Numbered from the stretch's first letter, positions 3,546 through 56,772 are shown. The stretch: 64,000 nt of DNA from Candidatus Spechtbacteria bacterium RIFCSPLOWO2_12_FULL_38_22 (GCA_001820055.1 MHOK01000005.1:7371-71370), one strand, 5' to 3'. Numbers and translations are program-made. Notes: a model not told the origin generated them from the letters alone.

Positions 3546-5452
3546 ATAAGAAATATAACCAAGAATACAGAAAACACAGCTATAGATAGTATGCTAACCA
3601 TCAAAGTTCCCACGTAAGAATAACTATCTCCAATACCGACCATGTTGTCTGAGTCTAAAATTCTATTTATTATTTTTGCAAATTTATCTGGTGATTTATT
3701 TTTTAGAGCATTAACCACCTTGTCTTCGCTGTCAAAGATTATATGCATAGCTAAAAATGTTCCAAGAATAATACTACCCACGACAAGTCCGCCCAAAGCT
3801 TCGGCTCCAAACAACAAGCTGACAACTAGGGGAACCAAAATGATAATGGACAACAACAAAATACTTTCTCTAAATACAGAGGACGCAATCATGCCGACAA
3901 AAGCGTTGTGATCTGGGTTTATGGTTCTTCCGGCCTTGCCCCTTAATTCCTTTAGCTGTTTTGACAAATAACCCACCAGCCTTAAGCGTATCTTTTGAGG
4001 AAAATGATACGTAAAGTACAGAATCCAGTAAATAAGCGAGCCTCCTAAAAACAAGCTTGCTAGTACGGTTGGGTTGTCTAAGGCAAAATCAAGATGCGTT
4101 GCCTTGCTTGTTATTTCCTGTTTATACAGAAAAAACATAATTATGCTAGCTAATACTGACGCAAACCAAGTATATACGTTAACTCCAACTCTAAAAATTC
4201 TGCTTATAAAATGAAGTTTATCTATGGTATTTATACTCTCTTGCGGAAGTTCTGTTATTTTAGAAAAACTACGAGCGTTGTCTGTAACAGACGAAAATAC
4301 TAGTAGAGAAACGATAGAACTACCCACAGATACAAAGGCCACAACGAATAACGACACCGCATAAATACCCGCCAAAACGTAACTAAACCCTATAAATATT
4401 GGAATAGTGAGCGTAATTGTTGCTATAGACTTTATAACCCCCAAGTTTTTCCATCGCGCAATGTAATAAAAACACGATATAAATCCAGCAGCCCAAAAAC
4501 CAAAAATGGAAGAAAGCCATACAGACACATCAGAATACTGCGGGCTTGCGCTTAAAACCCATGCAAGAAGCGGAAATAAAATTACAGATGCAACTAGCAC
4601 TGTTGCAAATACAGATAAAAATATGTTTTTTAGGATATTAGTAGTAGTTCCAGCTCTTACCAACTTGACTCCGATGAAAGATGAAAATAGCCCCACCGCT
4701 GCTATTAAAGAAGGTAAAATCGTGTCCCCCAATACAGAAGACCCAATGATGATAGCTCCTGTTATGCTTATGGTGAATATCCCAAATATGATTGTCGGTA
4801 GTCCAATGCCGTCCTCTATATCATACCCAACCAAAGATGCCACAATTTGTGGATCTCTAGATTCTTTTTCTGTCTTCTTTCTTCCGGAATCTATAAAAAA
4901 CTTCTTATCTGTCAACACCGTCTGCGTATAGCTTGCAATACCTATTCTGGAAAAAGCCATAACAAGTGTAGCGCCCAATGTCATAGCTACTAAATCTTCT
5001 GCACTGGGGTCTAGTGTTATTCTGTATAGAGAAATTATAAAAAGCGAAAGTCCCAATATAAAAACGCTAAAGATATTTCCGCCTTCCAAAATAGACCTAA
5101 AGGACTCGATTAATCCTTTATACGAATTATCTGCAATTTTAGAGTTAAGTTTGTTCAAAAACAAAAGAGATATATATGCCACCAATCCCGCGCCAACAAC
5201 TCCTATGATAAACCCCAGCGCCGTACTAAAATCTAAAAACGGTACGCTTAAAATAACTATCAATATAATCAAAGCAAATACACCTATGATTCTGTATAGT
5301 CTGAATAAATACACAAAAGATATTTTTTGAACCTTACTCGCCAGAGCAGCTATTTCAATATTTCCCAACTTTCCAAAAAAATGCTTCTGACTGGTATAAA
5401 TAGAGTATATAAGCGCAAGAAAGGATATTGTAAGAGGCACAAGAAAAAACAT
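3542..5452 (-). CDS. Polytopic integral membrane protein, possibly a degenerate H+-pyrophosphatase-like protein
   Basis: 636 aa with more than 12 predicted TM helices. Segment RDPQIVASLVGYDIEDGIGLPTIIFG loosely resembles the H+-PPase [29 protein letters not shown] motif but lacks the Asp-rich catalytic residues. Confidence 0.3.
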   Translation of the reverse strand: MFFLVPLTISFLALIYSIYTSQKHFFGKLGNIEIAALASKVQKISFVYLFRLYRIIGVFALIILIVILSVPFLDFSTALGFIIGVVGAGLVAYISLLFLNKLNSKIADNSYKGLIESFRSILEGGNIFSVFILGLSLFIISLYRITLDPSAEDLVAMTLGATLVMAFSRIGIASYTQTVLTDKKFFIDSGRKKTEKESRDPQIVASLVGYDIEDGIGLPTIIFGIFTISITGAIIIGSSVLGDTILPSLIAAVGLFSSFIGVKLVRAGTTTNILKNIFLSVFATVLVASVILFPLLAWVLSASPQYSDVSVWLSSIFGFWAAGFISCFYYIARWKNLGVIKSIATITLTIPIFIGFSYVLAGIYAVSLFVVAFVSVGSSIVSLLVFSSVTDNARSFSKITELPQESINTIDKLHFISRIFRVGVNVYTWFASVLASIIMFFLYKQEITSKATHLDFALDNPTVLASLFLGGSLIYWILYFTYHFPQKIRLRLVGYLSKQLKELRGKAGRTINPDHNAFVGMIASSVFRESILLLSIIILVPLVVSLLFGAEALGGLVVGSIILGTFLAMHIIFDSEDKVVNALKNKSPDKFAKIINRILDSDNMVGIGDSYSYVGTLMVSILSIAVFSVFLVIFLI

Positions 5453-7526: not shown

Positions 7527-8225
7527 ATGTTTCCTTTGTCCAGCGAAAATGAACAAACTGCAAAAAGTATCGTAGAAAAGTTAAAAATAGAACGCCGAGA
7601 AAGAAGCAATAAACTTCCAGTACTTAGCTTTAGGCGCCTATATAGTATACTAAACGGGGACGAAAAACTCTTTGTAAAAAATCTACTTAACCAAAATCCT
7701 AAGACATATGGTTTCAATGGACCATTTTTAGGCATAGAAAAGGTCCCACTTTTTCTCAAAAAAATACGGGGACAAAAATATACGCGTGAGAGAGAAGAAG
7801 AGGAAATCGCGCAACAATACTTACCGTTCCAGGTATGGCTGGCATACAAAAAACTAAGCAAAGCAATGAAAAATGAAATTGGCAAAGAGATACTAATCGA
7901 ATCTGGTTATCGATCTCCTGCGTATCAAGTGCTTACGTTTCTATATTCTTTAGTTGAAAAACATAAGTTGGACTACGAAAAAACATTGAATCTTGTTGCG
8001 CTTCCCGGTTACAGCCAACACGGACACCCTCCGCTTCAAGCAATAGACTTTACAACCAAGGACGGCGCGCTTAGAGGTGAAAAAATGGGATTTGAAAATA
8101 CAAGTGAGTACGACTGGCTATCAAAAAGTGCAAATAAATACCACTTCCACCTTTCTTACCCTAAAAATAATGCACTGGGTATTAGATTTGAACCCTGGCA
8201 CTGGCACTATCAAAAACAAAATTAA
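7527..8225 (+). CDS. D-alanyl-D-alanine carboxypeptidase, peptidase M15B/VanY-like
   Basis: SGYRS...SQHGHPPLQAIDF (SxHxxGxAxD) and EPWHWHY (EPWHW), characteristic of VanY/M15 zinc peptidases. Confidence 0.7.
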   Translation: MFPLSSENEQTAKSIVEKLKIERRERSNKLPVLSFRRLYSILNGDEKLFVKNLLNQNPKTYGFNGPFLGIEKVPLFLKKIRGQKYTREREEEEIAQQYLPFQVWLAYKKLSKAMKNEIGKEILIESGYRSPAYQVLTFLYSLVEKHKLDYEKTLNLVALPGYSQHGHPPLQAIDFTTKDGALRGEKMGFENTSEYDWLSKSANKYHFHLSYPKNNALGIRFEPWHWHYQKQN

Positions 8226-8240
8226 AAACTACAAAAAAAA

Positions 8241-8732
8241 ATGGCGGACCCAAGAATAAAATTTGACTTATTTAGCACATATATAGCAACTATAAAAAAC
8301 TCCGTCGGAACGAAAATGTTCCGAAATATTTATGTTATAGAAAACAAGAGACGCAGAGATGTCGCAAAAAACGGTAGAGTTTCGTGCGCCGCTTTTGTTT
8401 CCTCTGTTTTAGTAATATCCGACAACTTAATAAAATCATCTCACACAACCGTAAAAGGATTACTGGAAGATATGCGGGAAAGTGGCTGGCATAAAATAGA
8501 CAAACCCAAAAAGGGTGCCGTGCTTGTATGGACACCCTTAAAACAAATGGAAGACTTGTCTAAAGATATTATAAGTTTTCCCTGGGAAAATGAGGACAGG
8601 TGGCATCCTGGATTTTATGTTGGCAAAAATACGGCAATAAGCAATAATTCAGATAGCGGGACACCCACAAAACACCCGTGGACTTACAGAAAAGTGGACA
8701 GCATTTGGTGGAACGATAGACTAAATAACTAG
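8241..8732 (+). CDS. Hypothetical protein with a possible Cys/His hydrolase fold
   Basis: 163 aa. Conserved-looking Cys (RVSCAAFVSSVL) and His (WHPGFYVG) spaced as in NlpC/P60 or CHAP folds. Weak evidence. Confidence 0.3.
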   Translation: MADPRIKFDLFSTYIATIKNSVGTKMFRNIYVIENKRRRDVAKNGRVSCAAFVSSVLVISDNLIKSSHTTVKGLLEDMRESGWHKIDKPKKGAVLVWTPLKQMEDLSKDIISFPWENEDRWHPGFYVGKNTAISNNSDSGTPTKHPWTYRKVDSIWWNDRLNN

Positions 8733-10138: not shown

Positions 10139-10201
10139 CTAAAAAGATTTCATCCACTATAGGGTTGCCTGGCAGCCCTATAGTGGATGAAATCTTTTTA
10201 G
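10139..10201. terminator. Long perfect hairpin between convergent genes
   Basis: CTAAAAAGATTTCATCCACTATAGGG-loop-CCCTATAGTGGATGAAATCTTTTTAG, stem ~26 bp. Confidence 0.6.
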
Positions 10202-10306: not shown

Positions 10307-12208
10307 CTACAAACTATCCGAAACTGTAAAAATTTTGGTTAACCTTATATTATCAAAAAAACTTACAAACTCCTTCCATATCTTGCCTAAAGAACTAACA
10401 GGCGCAATTTCTTTAAAGTCTGGTAGGGGTAATTTAACATCTATTGTATCTGTTTTTGAACACTGGCCGTTACCAGAGTTTGAATCTGTGGCAAGAGTGT
10501 TATCTGTAACCCTTAGGATAATTGTTTGGTTCCCGTCACTGCCAAATACTGCTTGGGGATTTTGTTGGGCAGAAGAACTTGGGGTTGTGTCAGCTGGAAA
10601 TGTCCAGTTCCAAGATTGACTTGCGCTTCCTGAATCAAAAATAGTTTGATCTCCAAATTGTACAGGCTCTCCTTGGGAGGGCTTTTGAGGCGCCCAAGAA
10701 AAATCTACAAACGGATATGGATGAAGAAGAGTTCTAAATGAAGTTCCGGCTGAAAATCCACTGCCTGCGTCCGAGGCATCATATACTTGCACTCTCCAAT
10801 AGTATGTCCTATTAAATGCCAGTTGTCCGTCTCCGTCTGCGATTCCGTCTGTAAATTCTGCCACCGGAGTAGAGGAAATAGCTATAAATCTTTCCTCGGC
10901 TCCACTTGCCACCTTTCCAGAATCAAATTGCAAATTTTGTTGAGTAAAGGATGGATTTCTTGAAACCTGCAATCTATATGCTGACTGGCTTGAACTTTCT
11001 AAATCAGAAAAATCCCACCTAAAACGTTCCCTAGCTATGCACGAGGGGCCAGAACCGATAACTAAACTGGCGGGCGAAGTGATTACTGTGGGGGGAGTAT
11101 TTATTAATGTACAAACCCTATCTCCATTTGGATCCTCGTAACCTGCGGGCATAGTTGCTTGTACTCCTCCGAGATTTGTACACAAATCTATAATACATGC
11201 TTGCGTATTGCATGCTTGCGAATCGCTTGTGCTTGTGCATGAAGTCGTATCCCTATTAATCGCAAGACGAGTGCGTGTTTGAGTGCCACCGCCACAAGGT
11301 TCAGAACAAGCACTCCAGACACTCCATTCAGAATATATACAACATCTGTCATCCAAAGAACATCTTTTTTCATTTGGATACGGAGCGCAAACTGTTCGTT
11401 CTTGCGGAACTTCTGTCGGATCACATTTCTCGCCTCCTCCACAACTGCCGACGGTCGTCCACGGTCCTTTGGCGCATGAATCACAAGACCGATGAGGTGT
11501 ACAACTTATAGACCCCGCGCAGTTAGTTTTTAAACCAGAATCGCATATACCGCAAGTAGGCGTAGACGCACTACATATTTGCGTACAAACCCTATCTCCA
11601 TTTGGATCTTCGTAACCCGCAGGCATAGTTGCCTGATTCCCTGCAATGTTTGTGCATACATCGCTAACGGGGCAAGTGGGAAGGTTTACCCCGTCCCATC
11701 TTATGGTAGTACTCCCAGATGGACAGGCGGCTTCTGAAGGAGCCTTGCCATCTACATTGGCCCTAACAGAATTAACCGGAGTACTGCCGTTACAACATAT
11801 TTTATACCGCCCGCCCACGGTACAATTACAATATCCTGCCCTCAAATACGGCGAAGGACCTGGTTCGTCATATTTATCTGCGGTTGAGCATGAGCTTGTG
11901 GTATAGATGAGTCTCCAACTACATGCATATCTACCCGTTCTCCTGCAAGAGGTAGTGTACTTACTCCATGTGTTAGTCTTGCTATTTGGGCCACAGGCCT
12001 CTCCACACCCTCCTGAATCGGTACGACTAGGACCATTATTACAGACTACGTTCGCGCCGGAGGGAGGACTACACCTTACTGGATCACATGATCCCAAACC
12101 ACCATCCGCCCGATATGGCTGATAAGCGCGAACTATGCTGAAAAAACCAAAAAACACAGCTACACTAACTGCCAAAAAAAGACTATGTTTAAGATATCGC
12201 TTATTCAT
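10307..12208 (-). CDS. Secreted/cell-surface Cys-rich adhesin-like protein with thrombospondin type-1 repeat, Fn3-like and PKD-like domains
   Basis: N-terminal signal/anchor. Residues ~291-338 read CIYSEWSVWSACSEPCGGGTQTRTR...QACNTQAC, a canonical TSP1 pattern (WSxWSxCSxxCGxGxQxRxR). Duplicated MPAGYEDPNGDRVCT modules. Fn3-like segment (TYYWRVQV). PKD-like segment (FGDQTIFDSG...WNWTF...ILRVTDN). Locally elevated GC. Confidence 0.7.
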   Translation of the reverse strand: MNKRYLKHSLFLAVSVAVFFGFFSIVRAYQPYRADGGLGSCDPVRCSPPSGANVVCNNGPSRTDSGGCGEACGPNSKTNTWSKYTTSCRRTGRYACSWRLIYTTSSCSTADKYDEPGPSPYLRAGYCNCTVGGRYKICCNGSTPVNSVRANVDGKAPSEAACPSGSTTIRWDGVNLPTCPVSDVCTNIAGNQATMPAGYEDPNGDRVCTQICSASTPTCGICDSGLKTNCAGSISCTPHRSCDSCAKGPWTTVGSCGGGEKCDPTEVPQERTVCAPYPNEKRCSLDDRCCIYSEWSVWSACSEPCGGGTQTRTRLAINRDTTSCTSTSDSQACNTQACIIDLCTNLGGVQATMPAGYEDPNGDRVCTLINTPPTVITSPASLVIGSGPSCIARERFRWDFSDLESSSQSAYRLQVSRNPSFTQQNLQFDSGKVASGAEERFIAISSTPVAEFTDGIADGDGQLAFNRTYYWRVQVYDASDAGSGFSAGTSFRTLLHPYPFVDFSWAPQKPSQGEPVQFGDQTIFDSGSASQSWNWTFPADTTPSSSAQQNPQAVFGSDGNQTIILRVTDNTLATDSNSGNGQCSKTDTIDVKLPLPDFKEIAPVSSLGKIWKEFVSFFDNIRLTKIFTVSDSL

Positions 12209-12839
12209 TAATAAAATATTTTTTGGACAACTCTTCGTCGTCTATTAAACTTTTAGCGACAGTGTCCATGCTCATAAATTGTATAAGCAAATTATAGTTA
12301 TCAAGAACAGCGGGGCCCTCAACCACTTCTGCAATCACGTGTCCCTCCTTATCTATAGAACCTCCCTTTGTTGAATCAATAATCCCTAAATTTTCTTGGG
12401 CTATTTTTTCCAAAGATATCGCTCCAGCCACAAAAACTCCTGTGGTAAAACTATCCACAACACCATTCGGATCATGCTCAAGAACAACCCAGCTCGTTTT
12501 ATCGTTCCAGTCCCAATCTAAATCAGTTCCGGCCATTAAATATCCTTCAAAGGGCGCTAGTACTCTTGTTCCAACAGGTAAGCTAAACGCAAAAAGACTA
12601 TATCCCTTAGAATCTTTGACAATGGTCCAATCGTCGCAATATTGTTGTTCAAGAATTAAACACTTGCCCGCTGACACTGATGGGAGTCCCTCTTTTTTAA
12701 AATCTTCTTCCAATAAAGAGTCTTCATTCTGGGACGCCCGAAATAAATATAAGAACAAACCCAGAAGAATCACCGAAACTAATGCAAATATTATTAATAG
12801 TATGGTCTTTTTGCTTTTCATGTATTTATAACTAAGCAA
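12201..12839 (-). CDS. Membrane-anchored protein with degenerate LytM/M23-like domain
   Basis: N-terminal TM. Domain VLAPFEGYL...WVVLEHDPNGVVDSFTTGVFV resembles the M23 beta-barrel core without HxH catalytic motifs. Paralogous to 12979-13668 (ILAPFDGYL). Confidence 0.4.
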   Translation of the reverse strand: MLSYKYMKSKKTILLIIFALVSVILLGLFLYLFRASQNEDSLLEEDFKKEGLPSVSAGKCLILEQQYCDDWTIVKDSKGYSLFAFSLPVGTRVLAPFEGYLMAGTDLDWDWNDKTSWVVLEHDPNGVVDSFTTGVFVAGAISLEKIAQENLGIIDSTKGGSIDKEGHVIAEVVEGPAVLDNYNLLIQFMSMDTVAKSLIDDEELSKKYFINE

Positions 12840-12978
12840 CGGTGTTCGTCTTTTTTTAGCTCCGAGGTTTAATTAAATTATATATCACACTCCCAATAAA
12901 CTAAAACCTAATCCTAACAAATTTTTAACAATATATGGAGTTGGGTGAGCGGGTTTGAGGCCCACTCACCCAACAGTC

Positions 12979-13668
12979 TCAAGGAAGATAGCTGAAAAAC
13001 TCGCGCATTAGGTCTTCGTCTTCTTCGTACCCTCCGGTGTCTGGATTGAATGTGGTTAAGCCAATCAATACATTGATTTGACTTTCTAGATCAACCATCA
13101 CCTTGGCAGGATCTGTAACTACAGCGATTACCTCCCCCCTCTTCTTCACTCCCGGCTCTGCAAAAGTGACACTGTGACCCGTGAGAATTAAAAGATAATC
13201 ACCTGACATATCTTCTCCCTGGAAAAATAATCCAGCAGGAACGTTGTGTCCGGCAATAAAAGAATTTGCCTGTGTATCAAGGTAACCATCAAATGGCGCC
13301 AGTATTTCACTCCCACTCGGCAAAATGTACCCAACACCTGCCAATTTTGATTCTGGCTGATACCCTATGTCTCCCAGTGAAATTGGAATGCCTTTTGGAT
13401 ATTCGGCCGGATCAACGATATAAATACCGTTTGCCGGAGGAATTACTTGTATCGTCGTAGTCGTAACTGGAATTGTCGTGGTCGTAGTTGTAGTGGTTGT
13501 CGAAGGAACTGCAGTTGTGGTCGTCGTAACTGGCGGCGCAGTTGTAGTCGTAATTGTCGGCTCTGCGGTAGTACTTGTGGTAGGAACAGCGCCTTTGCCA
13601 CTACATGCCGTAGCAACAAAGAAGATAAATGTCAGCATTAGTGCAAAAGAACGCGCGAACTTGGACAT
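12979..13668 (-). CDS. Lipoprotein with Thr/Pro-rich linker and degenerate LytM/M23-like domain
   Basis: Signal peptide with lipobox-like VATAC|SG. Poly-Thr linker. Domain shared with 12201-12839. Confidence 0.5.
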   Translation of the reverse strand: MSKFARSFALMLTFIFFVATACSGKGAVPTTSTTAEPTITTTTAPPVTTTTTAVPSTTTTTTTTTIPVTTTTIQVIPPANGIYIVDPAEYPKGIPISLGDIGYQPESKLAGVGYILPSGSEILAPFDGYLDTQANSFIAGHNVPAGLFFQGEDMSGDYLLILTGHSVTFAEPGVKKRGEVIAVVTDPAKVMVDLESQINVLIGLTTFNPDTGGYEEDEDLMREFFSYLP

Positions 13669-13832
13669 GTTGTTTACCTCTTTCTTGGTGATCTTGCGTT
13701 CTCAACGTGCGCGTGGCACGCAAGAACTCCTTACTGCCTCCAGTATATCGCTCATTTGACAAATAGTCAATAGTATTGTAAAAAACATTCTCTTCTGCAA
13801 AAATAACCTAAAACCAAAAAACGTCTACCAAT

Positions 13833-14186
13833 CTATAATTCAGTAGCAACACAATCATACGGGAGGAGTTCGTTTAATTCTTTCCTCGTTAATTCGTCTC
13901 TGGCATAAATTTCATCTAAGCGCTTAGTATAATCTTCCTGTTCTAGCAGGGGTAAGCTACTAAAGCCTTCACAAAGTATTTCTAAATTATTTGGCTTGAT
14001 TATATCTGTTTCATTCTTGGGCTTGGGTGAAACTCCTTTGTCAAAACCATTTCCAAAATAAAAGAAAGACCCCGCTCCAAGAATGACGACGCCGAGCACG
14101 ATACTCAAGATTAGCTGTTTATTTAAATGCGGCAAAACTTTAATCTTTTTCATAAATTTTATTGCGGTAAATAACCTCCAACTCAT
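13833..14186 (-). CDS. Small single-pass membrane protein
   Basis: 117 aa. One hydrophobic helix near the N-terminus. No recognizable domain. Confidence 0.35.
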   Translation of the reverse strand: MSWRLFTAIKFMKKIKVLPHLNKQLILSIVLGVVILGAGSFFYFGNGFDKGVSPKPKNETDIIKPNNLEILCEGFSSLPLLEQEDYTKRLDEIYARDELTRKELNELLPYDCVATEL

Positions 14187-20015: not shown

Positions 20016-20390
20016 TTATTTTTGTTTTTCAATAGACCTTATTAAACCATTAATTAACTTCTCTACATCCTTGCTTGTTTCGCCTAACTGCTGACAGCTC
20101 TCTTTGTCTATTAATTTTAAATCTCTGGCCAAAAGTAGGAAATTCTGCACTTCTGCCACAGAACCCCTTGCTTGATAATAAAATCTTATTTTGTCGTTGT
20201 AGTGATATCGCGCAAATCCCTCTGCCATATTGGCTGTAACTGAACTTGAGGCTCTCCTCAACTGACTAGTTATCCCAAACACTTCTTCTTTGGGAAACCT
20301 TTCTGTAATTTGGTAAATTTTTATGATCAACTGGTGACCCTTTTTCCAAGCGCCCAAGTCATAAAAATTTTTAATGGAATTTTCGTTCAT
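20016..20390 (-). CDS. Four-helix-bundle protein (TIGR02436-type, '23S rRNA intervening-sequence protein' family)
   Basis: 124 aa. N-terminal region (FYDLGAWKKGHQLIIKIYQITERFPKEE...SQLRRASSSVTANMAEGF) matches this family. Confidence 0.7.
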   Translation of the reverse strand: MNENSIKNFYDLGAWKKGHQLIIKIYQITERFPKEEVFGITSQLRRASSSVTANMAEGFARYHYNDKIRFYYQARGSVAEVQNFLLLARDLKLIDKESCQQLGETSKDVEKLINGLIRSIEKQK

Positions 20391-22024: not shown

Positions 22025-22750
22025 TTAAAACGTATCCGCTCTAATAATATTATTCTCCGCTTTAAAATTTATCCAGTCTTCAACAATTCTGCGACAACTA
22101 CTTTCTCCTCCAAATAAGTTTAAATAAAAATCTCTTTCTGTAACTAGAGGGAAATTAGAATTTCCAATATAATCACAATAACTAGACCACCTATACCTTT
22201 CCAAAAAATTTAGTGCGTTGTTCTTGTTTTTAACTATTAATTCTTTCCAATCCGACTCCACTAGTTCTACAGGATTTGTATGAACATAGCTAAATATAAC
22301 CATTAATTGTTCGTTAGTCTTAATTTTAACACTTCTATATCTACCCTGAAATATGCCACCCATACCACTCCTATTGTACTTCTCATTAAAATATCCCGTA
22401 TATCCATTGCCTAATTTCTTCATAAATAGAGATATACCGCCATCGTTTATCTCTCTCAAAATTAAATGAAAATGATTGCGCATAAGAACAAGGGCTAAAA
22501 TAGCAACTATCGGCTTACGTTGTTTAACACTTCTAGCCTCTAACTTCTTAGGGGTTGAACCCCCAGGAAGTCGTCTTTCGTCATTCTTTAAGTCTCCTAT
22601 AACAATAAGCTCCTTGTTATTAAACCAATATAATGATTCAATAAAGCGCAAATAATCTTTATCGTCTAAAAATATATCGCGTTTATCATATCCGCGATTA
22701 TATACATGGTATATTCCATTTATTTCAAAATCTCTAGGTGGTGAAGCCAT
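22025..22750 (-). mobile_element. IS200/IS605-like Y1 HUH transposase, REP-associated (RAYT)
   Basis: 241 aa. YHVYNRGYDKRDIF N-terminal motif. HUH motif NHFHLIL. Catalytic Tyr region YVHTNPV. Flanked on both sides by REP palindromes. One REP-like copy at 22546-22575 lies in-frame inside the CDS (RLPGGSTPKKL). Confidence 0.65.
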
Positions 22751-22765
22751 AAAGTCAACCTATCA

Positions 22766-22798
22766 TACAATTCCTGGGGGTTCAACCCCCAGGAATTG
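22766..22798. repeat. REP palindrome upstream of the RAYT-type transposase gene
   Basis: Perfect palindrome ACAATTCCTGGGGGTTCAACCCCCAGGAATTGT. Confidence 0.65.
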
Positions 22799-22874
22799 TA
22801 AATTAGCCACCGAGTCCGCCGAAAGGGCGAATAAACTCCGCGAGGCGAACCAAAACTCTTTGACTTTTCCTACG

Positions 22875-22951
22875 TGGTGCTCCCGGGAGGACTCGAACCT
22901 CCAACCTTCTGGTCCGAAGCCAGACACTCTATCCGATTGAGCTACAGGAGC
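22875..22951 (-). tRNA. tRNA-Arg (anticodon TCG), CCA encoded
   Basis: Manual cloverleaf fold. Acceptor GCTCCTG/CGGGAGC. Anticodon stem TCTGG/CCAGA with loop CTTCGGA (UCG). T-arm GGAGG-TTCGAGT-CCTCC. 3' ACCA. Confidence 0.8.
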
Positions 22952-36205: not shown

Positions 36206-37363
36206 TCAACTCAACGGATTTCTTGCTCCATGCACCTCCCAATGCAAATGGCATCCCGTAGAGCGCCCAGTGGAACCCGTGTAGCCTATCAGTTGCCCCT
36301 GGCCTACATCTTGTCCTTGAAACACAGAGGTCTGGATCAAGTGGGCGTAAAGTGCTGAAGTTCCATTTGGATGTGAAACTTTTACATAGTTGCCAAACCC
36401 GCCATTCCACCTTCCGTTACCCACTGATAAAACAGCGCTTCCAGATGCCGCCGCATAAACTGGCTGCCAACAACCACCTGCGATATCAACAGCATTGTAC
36501 CCATGCAACCGCTGACTAATATAACCCGTGGTAGGTTTTATAAAGTAACCGCTCAAATTCTCAAGCGCAGGAGAAGAGGTGCGTGTTGTCGCGTACTTGG
36601 GCACAGGTGGCTTAACTCCCCCAGGAATGATAAGAGTCTGACCAGCAACAATATGAGCCGCGTCTGCGATATCGTTTACCCTCAAAATCTCCTCGCCGTC
36701 TGCTTTATAGCGGGAGGCAATTGTAGAAATAGTATCGCCATATTGCACCTCATATGCCAGACCGTCCATCGGTAATATCATAAGTTCGTCTCCCGGTTGT
36801 ATGTAATCTGAAGAACTTAGGTCGTTAGACCAAAGCAAAGTATCTAAACTTAATCCGAAGGAGTTTGCGATTGCGGCTGGAGTATCTCCAGAACGAACAA
36901 CATATTTTCTCAAACCGACTCTATCGCTTGTAGGTACCGTCTCTTCAATTTCACTTGTATTATTCCAAAGAAAAGCACTACCTTGATCCACTGAATTAAT
37001 ATACTCCACGCTACCACCAATACCCGTTGAATCAGACATAAGGGCATCTATGTTCAATCCAGCTACTAAGCGACCGCTCGCAAACACTTCCGAGTACTTG
37101 GTGCTACTATTTTCTATTACTTTTTCTACCTTAATTTCCTGGTCAACAATAGCATGTATTGGCGTCACGGGGCCTAAATTGTCGCGTAAGAATATAGAAA
37201 AAAAGCCAACTAAAAAAAGAACGGCGATAGAACCTTTGAAAAAAATAAAAAAGGCATAATGATCGCCTTTCTGTTGTATATCTAAAAATTTGAATTTTAA
37301 TTTACTAAAAACACCCTCGACGTAGAGTACAATTCTTTTTATGTCGCGCATCTTTTTTATCAA
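36206..37363 (-). CDS. LysM-domain peptidoglycan endopeptidase (M23 family)
   Basis: N-terminal TM. Two LysM repeats (GDTPAAIANSFGLSLDTLLWSN; GDTISTIASRY). C-terminal M23 core with HxH (CHLHWEVH). Confidence 0.82.
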   Translation of the reverse strand: MIKKMRDIKRIVLYVEGVFSKLKFKFLDIQQKGDHYAFFIFFKGSIAVLFLVGFFSIFLRDNLGPVTPIHAIVDQEIKVEKVIENSSTKYSEVFASGRLVAGLNIDALMSDSTGIGGSVEYINSVDQGSAFLWNNTSEIEETVPTSDRVGLRKYVVRSGDTPAAIANSFGLSLDTLLWSNDLSSSDYIQPGDELMILPMDGLAYEVQYGDTISTIASRYKADGEEILRVNDIADAAHIVAGQTLIIPGGVKPPVPKYATTRTSSPALENLSGYFIKPTTGYISQRLHGYNAVDIAGGCWQPVYAAASGSAVLSVGNGRWNGGFGNYVKVSHPNGTSALYAHLIQTSVFQGQDVGQGQLIGYTGSTGRSTGCHLHWEVHGARNPLS

Positions 37364-40591: not shown

Positions 40592-43021
40592 TTGTTAGGG
40601 GAAAACTTCTTGAGCAAACGTGCTCTTCTATTGTATAATAAATCTATAACTAGTATGGATTTTTATAGAAAACTCCGCAAATTTTTTATTACAAAAAATC
40701 TGCATATGTCGCAGAGTATTCTTAGTATTTCGCTGTCCATAAGATACTCAAAATACTTCCTCACAGCTATCGTTTTTGTAGTATTTGGGGGATTTTTCTT
40801 TTCAGCGCAACCAACAGACGCGTTCGGATTTTTAGCGTGGTTCGGTGTTGGTTTATTAGCGGATATACTTACTGGTGGACACGTCTTAAGTGCCGTAGCA
40901 GCACCCTTCTTCGAAGCCTTAATGAAGATATTGACCGAATTTATATTTCCAATTGTTGAAGCTGTCATAACCTCAATATTATCCTTCATAAACTTCTTAC
41001 TCACTGGAATTGTATATGTGGCAAAAACCATAATGGAGTTTGCTTTAAACTTTTCCCTTACCGCTCCTTACACAGACACAAGCCAAGGAGTTATAAAAGC
41101 CGCATGGCCGATATTTAGAGATTTGGCAAATATGGGACTTATTCTAGTACTAGTAGCTATCGGCATCGGGACAATACTTAACCTAAAGACAAACCGCAAC
41201 CAATTGATGCCCTTTATTATAATCGCGTTTCTAATTAACTTTACTCCGATGCTTACGGGCATCGTTATAGATTTAAGTAACTTAACCGCACGTATCTTTT
41301 TTGACGCGGCGCAAAATGCCTCAAACGCGTTTCTAGCTGGGAATCCATTTTCAGGTTCAATGGACAGACTTGGGGGAAGCATACCACTAATAGGTAGAGG
41401 AATATCAGGAGATGCGTTCGGAGCAACAGATTTTTCTGGCATCTCAATTTTTGCCATAATGACTACCATATTTTTACTTGTCCTAATTTTTGCGTACTTA
41501 CTGCTAGGCGCGCTATTTTTGGGTAGAACTTTGGCGCTTTGGTTGCTTGTTATATTTTCTCCTATAGCGTTTGTGGCTTATATACTTCCCTCGACCAGAA
41601 AAGTTTTTGATAACTGGTGGAACAACTTTTTAAAATGGTCCCTCATCGCAATACCCCTTATATTCTCTTTGTGGCTAGCGGGTATATTTTTACATAACAC
41701 AAGTGTTGGTTGTCAGGCGATATCTCAAAGTGCGATAGAACAAAATATTGGCGAAAACTTAGAGGAAAACGACGGAACAATAACAGGAGAGTCGTCGTTA
41801 GCAGGAGATGACTACGCAACCATACTTTATCCTGTAACCGCCGCGCAAACCAATACCGGCACAAATATGATTTGCGGAATTACATCTATGATATTTGCTC
41901 TTGGGACGCTATTTGTTGGCATATCTATGAGCTTAAAAAGTTCTGCCACAGGGGCGAACATTATAATATCGCGCGCTAAAAAACTGAAAGATGCGATGAT
42001 GAAAAAAGCTTCAAAGTGGGCAGGCACTGAAGCTGAAAAAAGGGGAAGACAACTTACGGCAAGACCGCTTTCAAAAGCGGGGCAGGGCTTGGCAGATTCT
42101 CGCCTTGGGCGCAGCGCTCTAGGGTCACCACTTCGCAACCTCGGGCTTGCGATGCAACGCCCTGCTGTAAAATGGGCTCAACAATATAAAGAGCACGAAA
42201 AGAAATTCCAAGGCATGAGCTGGGAACAAATGAAAGGAATGTTGTTTGAACGCACAGACAAAGGGTCTGCTGCGTGGGCATACGCCGCTAAAAACCACGC
42301 CGGAGATTTAAGAAAAACCTTAGATGATCCAAAAACTGGAGGTGGCCTAAGAAAAGTTATGAAAGCAAAGATGAAAAAAGCTAATTTACGAGGCGATGAC
42401 TCTATGAAAGAGGTAGAAAAAATTGATCCAAAAACCGCAGCAGAAACAAAACATGCCGGTATCAGTGATGAAGGAAAACGACTAGATGCTATAAAAAATG
42501 AAATACATAAGATAGTAGAAAAGCTAGATGACAAAGCGGTCGCAAACCTATCTAATTCGTCTCTGGGAGATACTAGAGTTGTAAAAGCGCTAGAGGAACA
42601 AGGCAAGTTAACTAAGGGTGCCATTGAAAATCTGGCAAAAGAAGAAACACGACTTGCAACGCTGGACACCATTCTGCAAGAAAACTACAAAAAAGAATTG
42701 GTCAAAGAATTAAAGAAAATGACATCAGAAGAAAGAATAAAAACATTTGGATCAGTTGGATCACTTATAGCGAGAGGGGGGGATTTATCACCCGAAGCAT
42801 ACAAAAAATTCCTATCAAGTCCTGAAAACTATAAAAAAATGTTGCGATACAAAAAGGATAAAAGTGGGGGGCGTGTTAGCCCGTACTTGGAAACCATAGA
42901 GGCTCACCCTTATGCGGCGGCGTTTCACTTCACAACCAAAGAATCTGTCCGGGAAGGACTAACAAAAAAAGATTTCGAGACTTTTAGAAAAGAAATGACC
43001 TCAAAGGAAGATAAAAAATAA
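40592..43021 (+). CDS. VirB6/TrbL-like polytopic membrane protein with long hydrophilic C-terminal domain
   Basis: ~8-10 TM helices in the first ~400 aa. Charged Lys/Ala-rich ~400-aa C-terminal extension. Position at the head of the VirB3/VirB4 cluster. True start may be 40655 or 40706. Confidence 0.45.
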   Translation: MLGENFLSKRALLLYNKSITSMDFYRKLRKFFITKNLHMSQSILSISLSIRYSKYFLTAIVFVVFGGFFFSAQPTDAFGFLAWFGVGLLADILTGGHVLSAVAAPFFEALMKILTEFIFPIVEAVITSILSFINFLLTGIVYVAKTIMEFALNFSLTAPYTDTSQGVIKAAWPIFRDLANMGLILVLVAIGIGTILNLKTNRNQLMPFIIIAFLINFTPMLTGIVIDLSNLTARIFFDAAQNASNAFLAGNPFSGSMDRLGGSIPLIGRGISGDAFGATDFSGISIFAIMTTIFLLVLIFAYLLLGALFLGRTLALWLLVIFSPIAFVAYILPSTRKVFDNWWNNFLKWSLIAIPLIFSLWLAGIFLHNTSVGCQAISQSAIEQNIGENLEENDGTITGESSLAGDDYATILYPVTAAQTNTGTNMICGITSMIFALGTLFVGISMSLKSSATGANIIISRAKKLKDAMMKKASKWAGTEAEKRGRQLTARPLSKAGQGLADSRLGRSALGSPLRNLGLAMQRPAVKWAQQYKEHEKKFQGMSWEQMKGMLFERTDKGSAAWAYAAKNHAGDLRKTLDDPKTGGGLRKVMKAKMKKANLRGDDSMKEVEKIDPKTAAETKHAGISDEGKRLDAIKNEIHKIVEKLDDKAVANLSNSSLGDTRVVKALEEQGKLTKGAIENLAKEETRLATLDTILQENYKKELVKELKKMTSEERIKTFGSVGSLIARGGDLSPEAYKKFLSSPENYKKMLRYKKDKSGGRVSPYLETIEAHPYAAAFHFTTKESVREGLTKKDFETFRKEMTSKEDKK

Positions 43022-43035
43022 CAAACACAAACATT

Positions 43036-43611
43036 ATGTTGGATATTGCCCTTAATAACTACGTACAAGCATTTGATACAACTCCGCAGAAGATAAAGGA
43101 TGTGCTTTTTGCCGACTTTACATCATCGGCAATAAAAAACATTACTCACCGACATAACGCGCAAAATAACATGCTGGATATATCTGCAACCATTGGTTAT
43201 GTACTAGTTGGCCTTATTCCCGTAAAAAACATTATTGAAGTTTTAAAATTAGAAGCGCAACTTGATCAAAACACAGCTCGCAATATAGCCTATGACATAC
43301 GCGAACAGATATTCGCGCCCATAGCTCAAGAACTTGCTTCAATACAAGCGCAAGCGCAAAACAGTTGGGGACAAATCAACGTACTTCAACCGCAAACAAT
43401 GCTTACTGTAGCTCCTGTTTTAGACGAATCAATCACAAGAGAAAAACTACAAATGATTCCTCCTGCGTTACAAGACCATCCTGCCCTAGAACTCCCCACA
43501 AAAGTAGCGCCCGCCCCGCCTCAAAACTTGCCAACAGAACCAAAAGCAATAGACAATATTCCGCCCGACAATCGAATAGATTTAAGAGACAAAAGAGATA
43601 CAAGGTTTTAA
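43036..43611 (+). CDS. Hypothetical soluble protein in the T4SS-like cluster
   Basis: 191 aa. No TM. Gln/Pro-rich C-terminus. Confidence 0.3.
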   Translation: MLDIALNNYVQAFDTTPQKIKDVLFADFTSSAIKNITHRHNAQNNMLDISATIGYVLVGLIPVKNIIEVLKLEAQLDQNTARNIAYDIREQIFAPIAQELASIQAQAQNSWGQINVLQPQTMLTVAPVLDESITREKLQMIPPALQDHPALELPTKVAPAPPQNLPTEPKAIDNIPPDNRIDLRDKRDTRF

Positions 43612-43634
43612 CGCCTACTGATAAACCCGTACAC

Positions 43635-43695
43635 TATTACTAGATTGCAGAAGTACCAAATTACTAGATTACAAAATTACTAAATTACCAGATTT
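43635..43695 (+). repeat. Upstream repeat module (family U), 5' of the VirB3-like gene
   Basis: ATTACTAGATTGCAGAAGTACCAAATTACTAGATTACAAAATTACTAAATTACCAGATTTG. Confidence 0.5.
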
Positions 43696-43717
43696 GTTAT
43701 CTTGTTATTTAATTATA

Positions 43718-44119
43718 ATGCAATATTCAACTCCACAATTTATAGACAGGGAACAAAAGCTGCTGGGGCCACTAACTGTACACCAAACAGTTATTCTTGG
43801 TTTAACTACTGTGTTTTTGGTAATATCCTATTTTATATTTAATTTCTTTTTGTTTAGCGTGTTACTCGTAATTCTTGGAGGCACGAGTATCTCAATATCT
43901 TTTATTAAAATAAACGACAGACCAGTATACCAGTTTGTAACTTCTTTTTTTGGATATTTTTTAAAACCCCGCATATACATATGGCAAGGAGAATCTCAAA
44001 ATCCTGTTGCGCAACCTCAAACCACGCAAAAGACACAACAAGAAACTGAGCCTCAAAAGAGATCTCCCCAAATTACAAAAAAAGAACTAGAAGAACTGAC
44101 AGAATTTCTTAACAAATAA
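43718..44119 (+). CDS. VirB3-like small membrane protein
   Basis: Two adjacent TM helices near the N-terminus. Immediately upstream of VirB4. The ORF track starts at TTG 43694. Confidence 0.3.
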   Translation: MQYSTPQFIDREQKLLGPLTVHQTVILGLTTVFLVISYFIFNFFLFSVLLVILGGTSISISFIKINDRPVYQFVTSFFGYFLKPRIYIWQGESQNPVAQPQTTQKTQQETEPQKRSPQITKKELEELTEFLNK

Positions 44120-44120
44120 T

Positions 44121-46542: not shown

Positions 46543-46543
46543 T

Positions 46544-46897: not shown

Positions 46898-46898
46898 A

Positions 46899-48122: not shown

Positions 48123-48131
48123 ACACCCTTT

Positions 48132-49715: not shown

Positions 49716-49740
49716 TTGTTTATTATTAACATAAAAGTAA

Positions 49741-56736: not shown

Positions 56737-56740
56737 ATTT

Positions 56741-56772
56741 AATAAACCCCCGATGCGTCGGGGGTTTATTAA
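56741..56772. terminator. Bidirectional hairpin terminator between dnaN and the PBP gene
   Basis: AATAAACCCCCGA-TGCG-TCGGGGGTTTATT. Confidence 0.6.

What the first reader, a model, noticed from the sequence alone, without database searches (positions are those of the whole stretch)
10307..13668. Operon of exported proteins headed by a Cys-rich adhesin with a eukaryote-like thrombospondin type-1 repeat plus Fn3 and PKD domains
The 633-aa protein contains a textbook TSP1 motif (WSVWSACSEPCGGGTQTRTR...QACNTQAC, nt ~11195-11338), rare in bacteria. It also has duplicated MPAGYEDPNGDRVCT modules (the DNA carries a 54-bp direct repeat at 11110-11162 and 11583-11636), an Fn3-like and a PKD-like domain, and elevated GC. 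Upstream in the same orientation are two paralogous anchored proteins with degenerate LytM-like domains. This is a candidate host/partner-attachment module.
Basis: partly seen in the sequence, partly recalled or inferred. Interest (0 to 1): 0.65.

Follow-up and report, generated by a model that had tools for sequence, protein, structure and literature searches.

The report
TSR surface protein with LytM-like partners
An uncultured groundwater bacterium (Candidatus Spechtbacteria) encodes a secreted, cysteine-rich protein with a genuine animal-type thrombospondin repeat, and its gene always follows genes for membrane-anchored, inactive LytM-like proteins, which makes the set a plausible but untested cell-surface attachment module.

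Summary
ORF 10307-12208(-) encodes a 633-aa protein with 38 Cys and a signal-peptide-like N-terminus. Pfam finds TSP_1 (33.5 bits, cut-off 21.6), an Ig-like domain and a marginal PKD domain. The TSR aligns with F-spondin TSR1 with all six Cys in register. The duplicated module and its DNA repeat are real.

Three corrections:
- The TSR protein is the last gene, not the head.
- The raised GC sits in codon position 2 (GC3 0.324 against 0.333), so it reflects amino-acid composition, not transfer.
- TSRs are not that rare: one 9-residue pattern found 140 TSR-like stretches in prokaryotic species genomes.

New points:
- The window is Candidatus Spechtbacteria (Parcubacteria/CPR).
- The two upstream proteins belong to a small family remotely similar to M23/LytM peptidases and lack the metal ligands.
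- In seven lineages the membrane-anchored LytM-like gene is followed, overlapping by 4-14 nt, by a gene starting with the same unmatched ~140-aa cysteine-rich N-domain.
- Against a sister lineage the gene is a recombination mosaic.

Best reading: a secreted modular surface protein coupled to non-catalytic LytM-like partners. Tethering and adhesion are inferred. Both structure predictions failed.

The parts
12979..13668 (-). C-type LytM-like lipoprotein, 229 aa: lipobox VATAC, a Thr/Pro-rich stalk of about 50 aa, then a domain of about 150 aa without metal ligands.
   Evidence: ORF. Family profile A5 hit at 2.7e-48. UniRef names it 'Peptidase M23 domain-containing protein', OGZ59430. Orthologue in L086 is 75% identical, dN/dS 0.19.
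12201..12821 (-). B-type LytM-like protein, 206 aa from the ATG (the ORF list gives a TTG at 12839): N-in membrane helix, then an extracytoplasmic degenerate LytM-like domain with the motifs SCxILExxYC and LPxGTxVLAPFEG.
   Evidence: Profile against PDB: all top hits are M23/LytM. hhalign against M23: probability 90.7% over 27 columns. No conserved His, no HxxxD, no HxH. OGZ59429.
12201..12208 (-). 8-nt overlap (ATGAATAA) between the stop of the B-type gene and the start of the TSR gene, which suggests translational coupling.
   Evidence: Sequence read directly. Overlaps of 4-14 nt occur at the same junction in L086, L092/93, L094, L096 and L097.
10307..12208 (-). Gene for the 633-aa secreted modular protein with 38 Cys.
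   Evidence: The identical protein is found on 22 contigs.
12125..12208 (-). Signal-peptide-like N-terminus, aa 1-28: K/R-rich start, hydrophobic core, then VRA|YQ.
   Evidence: Hydropathy windows above 1.6 occur only at aa 5-29. The motif is conserved as ARA|YQ in L086. No dedicated predictor was available.
11708..12124 (-). Cysteine-rich N-domain, aa 29-167: 10 invariant Cys and the motifs W[ST]K[YW]xxSC, CSTxDK and YKxCC. In this data it is found only downstream of B-type LytM-like genes.
   Evidence: Alignment A6. Profile hits at 1e-33 to 1e-94 in L086/87, L091, L092/93, L094, L096 and L097, and in none of the 79 other TSR loci. No hit in Pfam, NCBIfam or PDB.
11582..11662 (-). CTN module 1, aa 183-209: DVCTNIAGNQATMPAGYEDPNGDRVCT.
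   Evidence: The same module of about 30 aa with 2 Cys is tandemly repeated in proteins with sortase-type signals, P0009/12/15/18/20.
11345..11581 (-). Cysteine-rich spacer, aa 210-288, including a possible degenerate TSR-like stretch (GPWTTVGSCGGGEKC...QERTVC).
   Evidence: Read from the sequence. No family hit. The TSR-like reading is my inference only.
11195..11344 (-). Thrombospondin type-1 repeat, aa 289-338, of the spondin/TRAP ('group 2') cysteine pattern.
   Evidence: Pfam TSP_1 33.5 bits against 21.6; TSP1_spondin 36.9 bits, below its cut-off of 41. F-spondin 1szl aligns with all six Cys in register, 'CIYSxWSxWSACS'. Two substitutions in L086, dN/dS 0.18.
11108..11188 (-). CTN module 2, aa 341-367: DLCTNLGGVQATMPAGYEDPNGDRVCT.
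   Evidence: The same TSR-then-CTN adjacency occurs in P0027.
10718..11038 (-). Ig-like beta-sandwich (Ig_Rha78A_N), aa 391-497.
   Evidence: Pfam 36.4 bits against 27.4. Shared at 51-66% identity with P0002-P0004.
10481..10708 (-). PKD domain, aa 501-576.
   Evidence: PKD_4 28.0 bits against 27.0. Weak similarity to ColH PKD structures.
10310..10432 (-). Conserved C-terminal tail, aa 593-633: LPLPDFKEIAPV followed by about 30 amphipathic residues. It is not hydrophobic enough for a membrane helix and has no LPXTG.
   Evidence: Conserved in P0002-4 and, more loosely, in the L091 protein. Hydropathy.
13742..13770 (-). Best sigma-70-like promoter match (TTGACT-17-TATACT), upstream of the 229-aa gene.
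   Evidence: This is a consensus match only, and the number of matches in the region is no higher than in shuffled sequence.
10149..10191 (.). 20-bp perfect hairpin between the 3' end of the TSR gene and the convergent HD-domain gene, probably a terminator.

Best explanation
This is a conserved extracytoplasmic gene cassette of a Candidatus Spechtbacteria (Parcubacteria/CPR) bacterium.

Two membrane-tethered proteins with non-catalytic LytM-like domains come first: a lipoprotein on a Thr/Pro-rich stalk and a single-pass membrane paralogue. A translationally coupled gene for a secreted, disulfide-rich, modular protein follows. That protein consists of a signal peptide, a lineage-specific cysteine-rich N-domain, a CTN module, a cysteine-rich spacer, a spondin-type thrombospondin repeat, a second CTN module, an Ig-like domain, a PKD domain and a conserved tail.

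Proposed mechanism:
1. All three products are exported by Sec. This rests on sequence features.
2. The N-domain binds the degenerate groove of the LytM-like proteins, as SpoIIQ binds SpoIIIAH and EnvC/NlpD bind amidases. This would tether or position the long protein at the cell surface. It is inferred from strictly conserved, overlapping gene order.
3. The elongated TSR/CTN/Ig/PKD part acts as the adhesive or spacer region that contacts a partner cell or matrix. This is inferred from what these domains do elsewhere and from the episymbiotic lifestyle of cultivated CPR bacteria.

The post-N-domain part of the gene is exchanged between related lineages by recombination, whereas the N-domain start travels with the LytM-like genes. 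The divergence profile shows this directly.
For: - Domain content.
- Export signals and cysteine distribution.
- Organism.
- LytM-like family: 52 representatives, all with an anchor plus a domain of about 150 aa. Every top PDB hit is an M23/LytM peptidase, E 1e-3 to 9e-3. hhalign gives 90.7% probability. UniRef names the 229-aa protein as M23-domain-containing. No conserved His, HxxxD or HxH.
- Gene coupling: the B-type LytM-like gene is immediately followed, overlapping by 4-14 nt, by a gene with the N-domain in the window, L086/87, L091 (Ca. Zambryskibacteria), L092/93, L094, L096 and L097. That is all seven lineages where the downstream sequence is available, at identities down to 30% (LytM-like) and 35% (N-domain).
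- The N-domain was found nowhere else among 99 loci.
- Purifying selection throughout, dN/dS 0.05-0.2.
- Mosaic divergence: 68-85% nucleotide identity from the 229-aa gene to about codon 105 of the TSR gene, then 88-99% to the end. dS is 0.7-0.8 in the first part and 0.04-0.26 in the second.
- The syntenic locus L089 has a different head on the same Ig/PKD/tail and no LytM-like genes.
- Degenerate LytM domains acting as protein-binding modules: PMC3817522, PMC5053510.
Against: - There is no direct evidence of binding between the N-domain and the LytM-like proteins.
- Both AlphaFold runs were unusable (mean pLDDT 37 and 34), so no fold or interface could be examined.
- The LytM assignment is remote: Pfam M23 is not hit by either window protein, only 1 of 34 family members gives E 0.035, the hhalign match covers only 27 columns, and comparison with the window's own M23 peptidase alone gave nothing.
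- Co-divergence of the LytM-like genes and the N-domain start could simply reflect one contiguous recombination tract.
- The protein also has a conserved C-terminal tail that could be the real anchor.
- A C-type-like protein occurs alone in a contig that does not look like CPR (L099).
- Adhesion and the binding partner are entirely inferred.
- No signal-peptide predictor was available.
Confidence: 0.5

Rival explanations
1. Cell-wall remodelling or attack module. The degenerate LytM-like proteins act as activators or regulators, as EnvC/NlpD do for amidases and Csd2 does for Csd1. The cysteine-rich N-domain would be a new peptidoglycan-active or peptidoglycan-binding domain. The TSR/Ig/PKD part would target it to the organism's own septum or to a host cell wall.
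For: The best-known role of degenerate LytM domains is hydrolase activation (PMC5053510). One family member, P0050, is fused to a domain that looks like NlpC/P60. Cell-wall genes lie nearby: VanY at 7527-8225 and LysM-M23 at 36206-37363. The N-domain has invariant polar residues (CSTxDK, YK) that could form an active site.
Against: The N-domain matches no hydrolase family in Pfam, NCBIfam or PDB. Ten invariant Cys in about 110 aa is more typical of a binding or structural module. The P60 hit is E 0.063 in one protein.
Confidence: 0.2
2. General matrix or biofilm structural protein. The protein would be a secreted, disulfide-stabilised extracellular fibre that binds polysaccharide or mineral surfaces in the aquifer, with no specific host-cell recognition.
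For: TSR, PKD and Ig-like domains are generic extracellular binding modules. There is no LPXTG or membrane-helix anchor. TSR proteins occur in many free-living phyla.
Against: The tight coupling to membrane-anchored partners argues for cell association. Cultivated CPR bacteria are episymbionts (PMC12206443 abstract).
Confidence: 0.15
3. Accessory or tip adhesin of a type IV pilus.
For: A LytM-like family gene lies directly after a complete type IV pilus operon in L098. TSRs are fused to type IV pilin N-termini in other uncultured bacteria, P0024 and P0030. Type IV pili mediate CPR-host contact (PMC9894109 and PMC12206443, listed).
Against: The 633-aa protein has a classical signal peptide, not a prepilin methylation motif. 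No pilus genes were found among the window ORFs I annotated. In L098 the downstream gene is cut off, so the N-domain link is not shown there.
Confidence: 0.08
4. Recent acquisition of a eukaryotic gene fragment, or eukaryotic contamination, explains the TSR.
For: TSRs are overwhelmingly eukaryotic in the experimental literature. Gene GC is 6 points above the window mean.
Against: GC3 equals the genome value. The TSR lies inside one ORF between prokaryote-specific modules. The gene sits among housekeeping genes on contigs from many samples. An orthologue is under purifying selection. TSRs occur in at least 140 prokaryotic loci.
Confidence: 0.03

Closest known systems
Eukaryotic thrombospondin type-1 repeats of the spondin/TRAP type (F-spondin TSR1, PDB 1szl; Plasmodium TRAP; Toxoplasma MIC2)
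   Same: About 50 aa with WxxW, CSxxCG, RxR and six Cys. One Cys lies N-terminal to the tryptophans and none follows RxR. F-spondin aligns with all six Cys in register. In apicomplexans such repeats serve attachment to host cells (PMC3417536).
   Different: There is a single repeat in a bacterial protein, flanked by prokaryote-specific modules. There is no vWA domain and no transmembrane or cytoplasmic tail. The O-fucosylation position (CxxS/TCG) is Pro. The fold and disulfide map are unverified.
Degenerate LytM proteins that act as protein-binding modules: B. subtilis SpoIIQ (binds SpoIIIAH), E. coli EnvC/NlpD (activate amidases), H. pylori Csd2 (pairs with Csd1)
   Same: Membrane-anchored or lipoprotein topology, an extracytoplasmic M23-like domain, and loss of the Zn ligands (PMC3817522, PMC5053510). 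They occur as a pair of paralogues, as Csd1/Csd2 do.
   Different: Homology is remote: E about 1e-3 against PDB, and 27 aligned columns in hhalign. The partner here would be a new cysteine-rich domain rather than an amidase or a YscJ-like ring protein. No interaction has been shown.
Other prokaryotic TSR-containing proteins in metagenome-assembled genomes
   Same: Cysteine-rich, secreted, with 1-9 TSRs, found in CPR, DPANN, gut Bacilli, Myxococcota, Bdellovibrionales, Rickettsiales, Planctomycetes and others. P0027 has the same TSR-then-CTN junction.
   Different: None of the 79 fetched loci has the N-domain or the LytM-like genes. Some are fused to type IV pilin N-termini (P0024, P0030) or to peptidoglycan-binding domains.
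Modular Gram-positive-type surface adhesins (Ig/PKD stalks, sortase-anchored repeat proteins)
   Same: Signal peptide, tandem small beta-rich modules, and Ig-like and PKD domains. The CTN module also occurs in proteins with LPXTG- or IPVTG-type signals.
   Different: The 633-aa protein has no LPXTG or sorting signal. It ends in an amphipathic tail shared with the AWSSNIGWISF-repeat proteins P0002-4.

Membership tests
Thrombospondin type-1 repeat (Pfam PF00090 TSP_1) | Profile score above the curated gathering score | tested here: met
   33.5 bits against 21.6, E 4.8e-8, aa 293-338. The orthologue in L086 scores 32.1 bits.
Thrombospondin type-1 repeat (Pfam PF00090 TSP_1) | WxxW tryptophan motif, CSxxCG turn and RxR arginine ladder | tested here: met
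   W294-S-V-W297, C301-S-E-P-C305-G and R312-T-R314, read from the sequence and aligned to thrombospondin-1 and F-spondin.
Thrombospondin type-1 repeat (Pfam PF00090 TSP_1) | Six cysteines in a known TSR pattern | tested here: met
   C290, 301, 305, 324, 333 and 338 align one-to-one with the six Cys of F-spondin TSR1. This is the 'group 2' pattern as I recall it from the TSR literature. Disulfide connectivity itself was not testable.
Thrombospondin type-1 repeat (Pfam PF00090 TSP_1) | Elongated three-stranded layered fold | tested here: inconclusive
   The AlphaFold model of the whole protein has mean pLDDT 34, and 35-39 across the TSR.
Spondin-like TSP1 subfamily (PF19028) | Profile score above the gathering score | tested here: not met
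   36.9 bits against a cut-off of 41, although the full profile length 1-52 is matched.
PKD domain (PF18911 / PF00801) | Profile score above the gathering score | tested here: met
   PKD_4 scores 28.0 against 27.0, which is marginal. PF00801 scores 19.2 against 23.5 and is not met. The L086 orthologue scores 25.0 and falls just below.
Fibronectin type III (PF00041) | Profile match | tested here: not met
   No fn3 hit at E <= 1. The region matches Ig_Rha78A_N instead, 36.4 bits against 27.4.
Peptidase M23 / LytM domain (PF01551) | Sequence or profile similarity to M23 | tested here: inconclusive
   Neither window protein gives a Pfam hit, and 1 of 34 family members gives E 0.035. However, all top PDB hits of the family profile are M23/LytM, E 1e-3 to 9e-3. 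hhalign gives 90.7% probability, E 1.2e-6, over 27 columns. UniRef names the 229-aa protein as M23-domain-containing.
Peptidase M23 / LytM domain (PF01551) | Catalytic Zn ligands HxxxD and HxH | tested here: not met
   The 34-member alignment has no conserved His. The aligned H and D positions are hydrophobic or Gly. If the domain is LytM-like, it is degenerate and non-catalytic.
Sortase-anchored (LPXTG) surface proteins | C-terminal LPXTG-like motif, hydrophobic helix and basic tail | tested here: not met
   No such motif, and no hydropathy window above 1.6 outside aa 5-29.
Diversity-generating retroelement target (TR/VR pair) | Repeat pair whose mismatches fall at adenines of the template, with a nearby reverse transcriptase | tested here: not met
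   The mismatches between the two repeat copies are of all kinds and lie in two in-frame protein modules. No reverse transcriptase was seen among the ORFs I annotated.
Type IV pilin / pseudopilin | N-terminal prepilin methylation motif (PF07963) | tested here: not met
   No N_methyl hit in the 633-aa protein, unlike P0024 and P0030.

The most novel reading that the evidence does not exclude
Parcubacteria may have a previously undescribed surface-display system. In it, membrane-anchored, catalytically dead LytM proteins would serve as dedicated receptors for a private cysteine-rich N-domain carried by secreted adhesins. The distal modules (TSR, CTN, Ig, PKD) would be swapped by recombination to change binding specificity. 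That would be a bacterial counterpart of the TSR-based attachment proteins of apicomplexan parasites and a handle on how these episymbionts recognise partners.
Probability: 0.25. Interest if true: 0.7.

Novelty: new variant of a known kind. Interest (0 to 1): 0.5.

Why it matters
How ultra-small CPR bacteria recognise and hold on to other cells is largely unknown beyond type IV pili. This locus provides a concrete candidate that can be synthesised.

- It pairs a secreted protein carrying a real thrombospondin repeat with dedicated LytM-like membrane partners, and the pairing is conserved in at least two Parcubacteria lineages (Spechtbacteria and Zambryskibacteria).
- It defines three uncharacterised sequence modules that current domain libraries miss: the N-domain, the CTN repeat of about 30 aa, and the LPLPxFxEIxPV tail.
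- It shows that TSRs, usually treated as eukaryotic adhesion modules, recur in surface proteins of many uncultured prokaryotes. That bears on the origin of the domain.

If the tethering idea is wrong, what remains is an ordinary modular surface protein of modest interest.

Tried and rejected
- AlphaFold2 of the B-type LytM-like domain with a 3-sequence alignment gave mean pLDDT 37. AlphaFold2 of the full 633-aa protein with a 7-sequence alignment gave mean pLDDT 34. Both are unusable, so no fold searches were run.
- A word-indexed homologue search with the N-domain alone found nothing and did not even return the protein itself, so it is a weak negative.
- A metagenome scan with the N-domain alignment gave 126 pattern matches, none confirmed. 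A scan with the B-type alignment gave one locus, L095, which is a false positive in a glycosyltransferase-like ORF.
- hhalign of the family against the window's own M23 peptidase as a single sequence gave no signal. A 3-sequence M23 alignment was needed.
- The profile of only three family members against PDB gave chance hits to GFP.
- The DGR idea for the 92-nt repeat was rejected: the mismatches are not adenine-specific and both copies are coding modules.
- The idea of transfer inferred from GC was rejected.
- The N-domain profile against PDB gave no hits.
- NCBIfam has no model for the CTN repeat, the AWSSNIGWISF repeat or the N-domain.
- Rfam found only two tRNAs in the window.
- Literature searches for thrombospondin together with Patescibacteria, CPR or DPANN, or for PF00090 in bacteria, returned nothing relevant.
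- My regular expression for CTN modules in the 79 TSR loci found none. I do not rely on that result, because tblastn matches extend into the module in several loci.

Full report
**1. What is in the sequence**

The minus strand carries three consecutive genes:
- 12979-13668, 229 aa.
- 12201-12839 in the ORF list. The start is more likely the ATG at 12821 (206 aa), which the gene callers and orthologues use.
- 10307-12208, 633 aa.

The last two overlap by 8 nt, ATGAATAA. The best promoter-like match on this strand lies just upstream of the first gene, at 13770-13742. A 20-bp hairpin at 10149-10191 separates the last gene from a convergent HD-domain gene. The TSR protein is therefore the distal gene of the set, not its head.

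**2. Organism and setting**

Neighbouring housekeeping proteins (NusA, trigger factor, EF-P, H+-pyrophosphatase) are identical to GenBank proteins OGZ594xx of Candidatus Spechtbacteria bacterium RIFCSPLOWO2_12_FULL_38_22 and sister bins. These are Parcubacteria (CPR) from the Rifle aquifer. The identical 633-aa protein occurs on 22 contigs from several samples, always in the same housekeeping context. It is a resident chromosomal gene, not contamination.

**3. The 633-aa protein**

- aa 1-28 look like a Sec signal peptide: a basic start, a hydrophobic core, then VRA|YQ. In the orthologue this is ARA|YQ.
- 36 of the 38 Cys lie between aa 41 and 390.
- Pfam gives TSP_1 at aa 293-338 (33.5 bits, cut-off 21.6), Ig_Rha78A_N at aa 391-497 (36.4 against 27.4) and PKD_4 at aa 501-576 (28.0 against 27.0). 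The spondin-type TSP1 model covers its full length but scores below its cut-off (36.9 against 41).
- Against PDB sequences the domain matches thrombospondin-1 TSRs at E 9e-14. It aligns with F-spondin TSR1 with all six Cys in register, including the N-terminal 'CIYSxWSxWSACS' and the absence of a Cys after RxR. As I recall the TSR literature, this is the spondin/TRAP-type cysteine pattern.
- The duplicated module (aa 183-209 and 341-367) is real. Its DNA copies are 78% identical over 92 nt with a near-identical core. The mismatches are of all types, so this is a module duplication and not a retroelement template/variable pair.
- The same module of about 30 aa with two Cys occurs in 4-10 tandem copies in proteins with sortase-type C-terminal signals (P0009, P0012, P0015, P0018, P0020). 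It directly follows a TSR in P0027. Neither Pfam nor NCBIfam has a model for it.
- The last 260 aa (Ig, PKD and the tail LPLPDFKEIAPV plus about 30 amphipathic residues) are shared at 51-66% identity with P0002-P0004. Those proteins carry AWSSNIGWISF repeats at the N-terminus instead.

**4. GC content**

The gene is 44.8% GC against 38.5% for the window. GC3 is 0.324 against 0.333 +/- 0.03 for 22 other genes, and the excess lies in codon position 2 (0.567). The cause is Cys/Gly/Thr/Ser/Pro/Ala-rich composition, not foreign origin.

**5. How rare TSRs are in prokaryotes**

One degenerate 9-residue pattern, CGGG[TK]Q[TD]RT, scanned over one genome per GTDB species, gave 140 tblastn-confirmed TSR-like stretches. 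The 79 loci shown come from:
- at least 20 CPR genomes (Roizman-, Moran-, Yanofsky-, Nomura-, Kaiser-, Sacchari-, Peribacteria, WWE3, Microgenomates);
- 6 DPANN archaea;
- gut Bacilli MAGs;
- Myxococcota, Bdellovibrionales, Rickettsiales, Planctomycetes, Binatia and others, several on contigs longer than 200 kb.

The ORFs are typically cysteine-rich with 1-9 TSRs. Some are fused to type IV pilin N-termini (P0024, P0030). TSRs are therefore sparse but widespread in uncultured prokaryotes. The list is ranked by similarity to the query, so I make no claim of enrichment. I found no paper in the held library that discusses this.

**6. The upstream pair**

The two proteins are weak paralogues (25% identity, E 2e-5). 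An exhaustive profile search found 52 representatives. Nearly all are 175-250 aa, with a membrane helix or lipobox, often a Thr/Pro-rich linker, and a domain of about 150 aa. The domain carries the motifs SCxILDExYC, GFxLPxGTxIxAPFDG, VxKGxVIA and YN...F, and has no conserved His.

Evidence for LytM likeness:
- Pfam does not recognise the window proteins.
- Only 1 of 34 family members gives a faint M23 hit.
- The 34-sequence profile's top PDB hits are all M23/LytM peptidases: 5kqb at 1e-3, S. aureus LytM at 2e-3 and 9e-3, then zoocin A, 2hsi and LECT2.
- hhalign against a small M23 alignment gives 90.7% probability over the 27-column 'hYGvD..P.GtpVyAp.dG.V' hairpin.
- UniRef already calls the 229-aa protein 'Peptidase M23 domain-containing'.

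The HxxxD and HxH ligands are absent. Topology places both domains outside the membrane: basic residues precede the helix, and the other protein has a lipobox.

**7. The conserved unit (new result)**

I looked up where family members are encoded. The B-type gene is followed, overlapping by 4-14 nt, by a gene that begins with a signal peptide and the same cysteine-rich N-domain as aa 29-167 of the 633-aa protein. This holds in:
- L086/L087 (sister lineage);
- L091 (Ca. Zambryskibacteria, MCR4279139);
- L092/L093;
- L094;
- L096;
- L097.

Together with the window that makes seven lineages, with identities down to 30% for the LytM-like gene and 35% for the N-domain. These are all the cases where downstream sequence exists. 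In L098 the next gene is cut off after 23 codons, and there the LytM-like gene sits directly after a type IV pilus operon.

The C-type lipoprotein gene lies upstream in four of these lineages. A C-type-like protein also occurs alone in a contig that does not look like CPR (L099).

The N-domain has 10 invariant Cys and the motifs W[ST]K[YW]xxSC, CSTxDK and YKxCC. It matches nothing in Pfam, NCBIfam or PDB. It is absent from all 79 other TSR loci.

After the N-domain the proteins differ. The Zambryskibacteria homologue again carries TSRs (18.1 and 22.0 bits). L092 has only a TSR-like stretch, and L096 has a Pro/Thr linker. The invariant part of the system is therefore the LytM-like gene plus the N-domain. 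The TSR is one of several distal modules.

**8. Locus history**

A syntenic locus in a related genome (L089) runs LysA-like, surface protein, HD, M15, VanY... NusA. It has P0003 (AWSSNIGWISF head plus the same Ig/PKD/tail) and no LytM-like genes. In the window's lineage the head was replaced and the LytM-like genes, with two further genes, were added.

Against the sister lineage L086:
- Nucleotide identity is 68-85% from the 229-aa gene through about codon 105 of the TSR gene. It then jumps to 88-99% up to and beyond the stop codon.
- dS is 0.69 for the 229-aa gene, 0.79 for the 206-aa gene and 0.82 for the N-domain. It is 0.04 for the cysteine-rich spacer, 0.10 for the TSR, 0.05 for CTN module 2, 0.26 for Ig, 0.23 for PKD and 0.04 for the tail.
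- dN/dS is 0.05-0.2 nearly everywhere.
- Population variant P0090 carries L086-type residues only in the PKD domain.

The gene is a recombination mosaic under purifying selection.

**9. Mechanism**

Shown:
- three extracytoplasmic products;
- genuine TSR, Ig and PKD modules;
- a non-catalytic LytM-like pair;
- strict, overlapping gene coupling between the B-type gene and the N-domain;
- modular exchange of the distal part.

Inferred:
- The N-domain docks on the LytM-like proteins, by analogy with SpoIIQ-SpoIIIAH, EnvC/NlpD-amidase and Csd1-Csd2, where degenerate LytM grooves bind partner proteins (PMC3817522, PMC5053510).
- This docking tethers a long disulfide-stabilised stalk at the surface.
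- The TSR/CTN/Ig/PKD part mediates adhesion to a partner cell or matrix.

I put about 0.8 on functional coupling, and about 0.4 each on physical tethering and on an attachment role.

The main rival is that the LytM-like proteins regulate a cell-wall-active N-domain. Lesser rivals are a generic matrix protein, a pilus-associated adhesin and recent eukaryotic acquisition. The last is disfavoured.

**10. Limits**

- Both structure predictions failed, so no fold-level test of the TSR, the N-domain or the LytM-like domain was possible.
- Two metagenome scans found nothing useful.
- The N-domain word search did not even return the query protein.
- No signal-peptide predictor was available.
- The LytM assignment is remote.

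**11. Verdict**

The TSR in a bacterium is real but already visible to Pfam, and TSRs are not unusual among uncultured prokaryotes. The more interesting and apparently undescribed feature is the conserved cassette of a LytM-like gene plus a cysteine-rich N-domain gene in Parcubacteria, with recombining distal modules. I rate it a new variant of a known kind (a modular bacterial surface protein with degenerate-LytM partners), with interest 0.5.

Noticed in passing
window 40592-50394 (+): A type IV secretion-like cluster. It has an 809-aa protein with a weak TrbL/VirB6 hit, a VirB4/TraG-like P-loop ATPase (44764-46542) and two large proteins with T4SS_pilin domains (46899-48122, 48132-49715).
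   Followed up: partly
window 36206-37363 (-): A genuine LysM + Peptidase_M23 protein with HxH intact (..CHLHWEVHG), in contrast to the degenerate LytM-like pair.
   Followed up: partly
window 54017-57000: DnaA (54017-55396) is followed by the lowest-GC stretch of the window (30.7-33.1%). The cumulative GC-skew minimum falls near 55-56 kb. This is probably the replication origin.
   Followed up: no
window ~20016-20390 (-) and 22025-22951: A small 23S-rRNA-IVP / weakly bAvd-like four-helix-bundle ORF. An IS200-type Y1 transposase (22025-22750) lies next to tRNA-Arg (22875-22951). No reverse transcriptase was seen, so there is no evidence of a DGR.
   Followed up: partly
L091 3162-5282 (Ca. Zambryskibacteria, JANLIM010000005): The homologous N-domain/TSR gene is interrupted by a single in-frame TAA at 4275-4277, and the same frame continues for 335 more codons (PKD-like, TSR, tail). 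This could be a pseudogene, a sequencing error or two genes.
   Followed up: partly
P0024, P0030; L016, L029: Proteins with a type IV prepilin N-terminus (N_methyl) followed by 4-7 thrombospondin type-1 repeats, in uncultured bacteria including gut Bacilli MAGs.
   Followed up: partly
window 10310-10432 (-); P0002-P0004; L089 409-1830: A conserved C-terminal tail, LPLP[DE]FxEIxPV plus about 30 amphipathic residues, after Ig and PKD domains. It is shared with proteins whose heads are GYAWSSNIGWISFN repeats. Neither the tail nor the repeat has a Pfam or NCBIfam model. It may be an unrecognised sorting or anchoring signal.
   Followed up: partly
P0009, P0012, P0015, P0018, P0020; window 11108-11188 and 11582-11662: A repeat of about 30 aa with two Cys, DLCTNxxGxQxxMPxGYEDPxxDxVCT. 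It occurs in 4-10 tandem copies in proteins ending in IPVTG/LPFTG plus a membrane helix and a basic tail. It is an uncharacterised domain family.
   Followed up: partly
L098 1-6647: A member of the LytM-like family lies directly downstream of a complete type IV pilus operon (PilB, PilC, pilin, PilD, minor pilins). The next gene is cut by the contig end.
   Followed up: partly
window 10307-12208 (-): The exact 633-aa sequence is present in JGI, ENA, Logan and MetaClust data but not in NCBI or UniRef, although both flanking gene products are (OGZ59429, OGZ59430). The gene may be annotated differently or missing in the deposited MAGs.
   Followed up: no
window 8241-8732 (+): A 163-aa protein between VanY and the HD gene. 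It has no family hit, but its Cys...His pattern reminded me of NlpC/P60/CHAP enzymes. In L089 the corresponding position holds a Peptidase_M15 gene.
   Followed up: no
window 13833-14186 (-): A 117-aa membrane-anchored protein just upstream of the cassette on the same strand. It has no homologue or family hit. Whether it belongs to the cassette is unknown.
   Followed up: no
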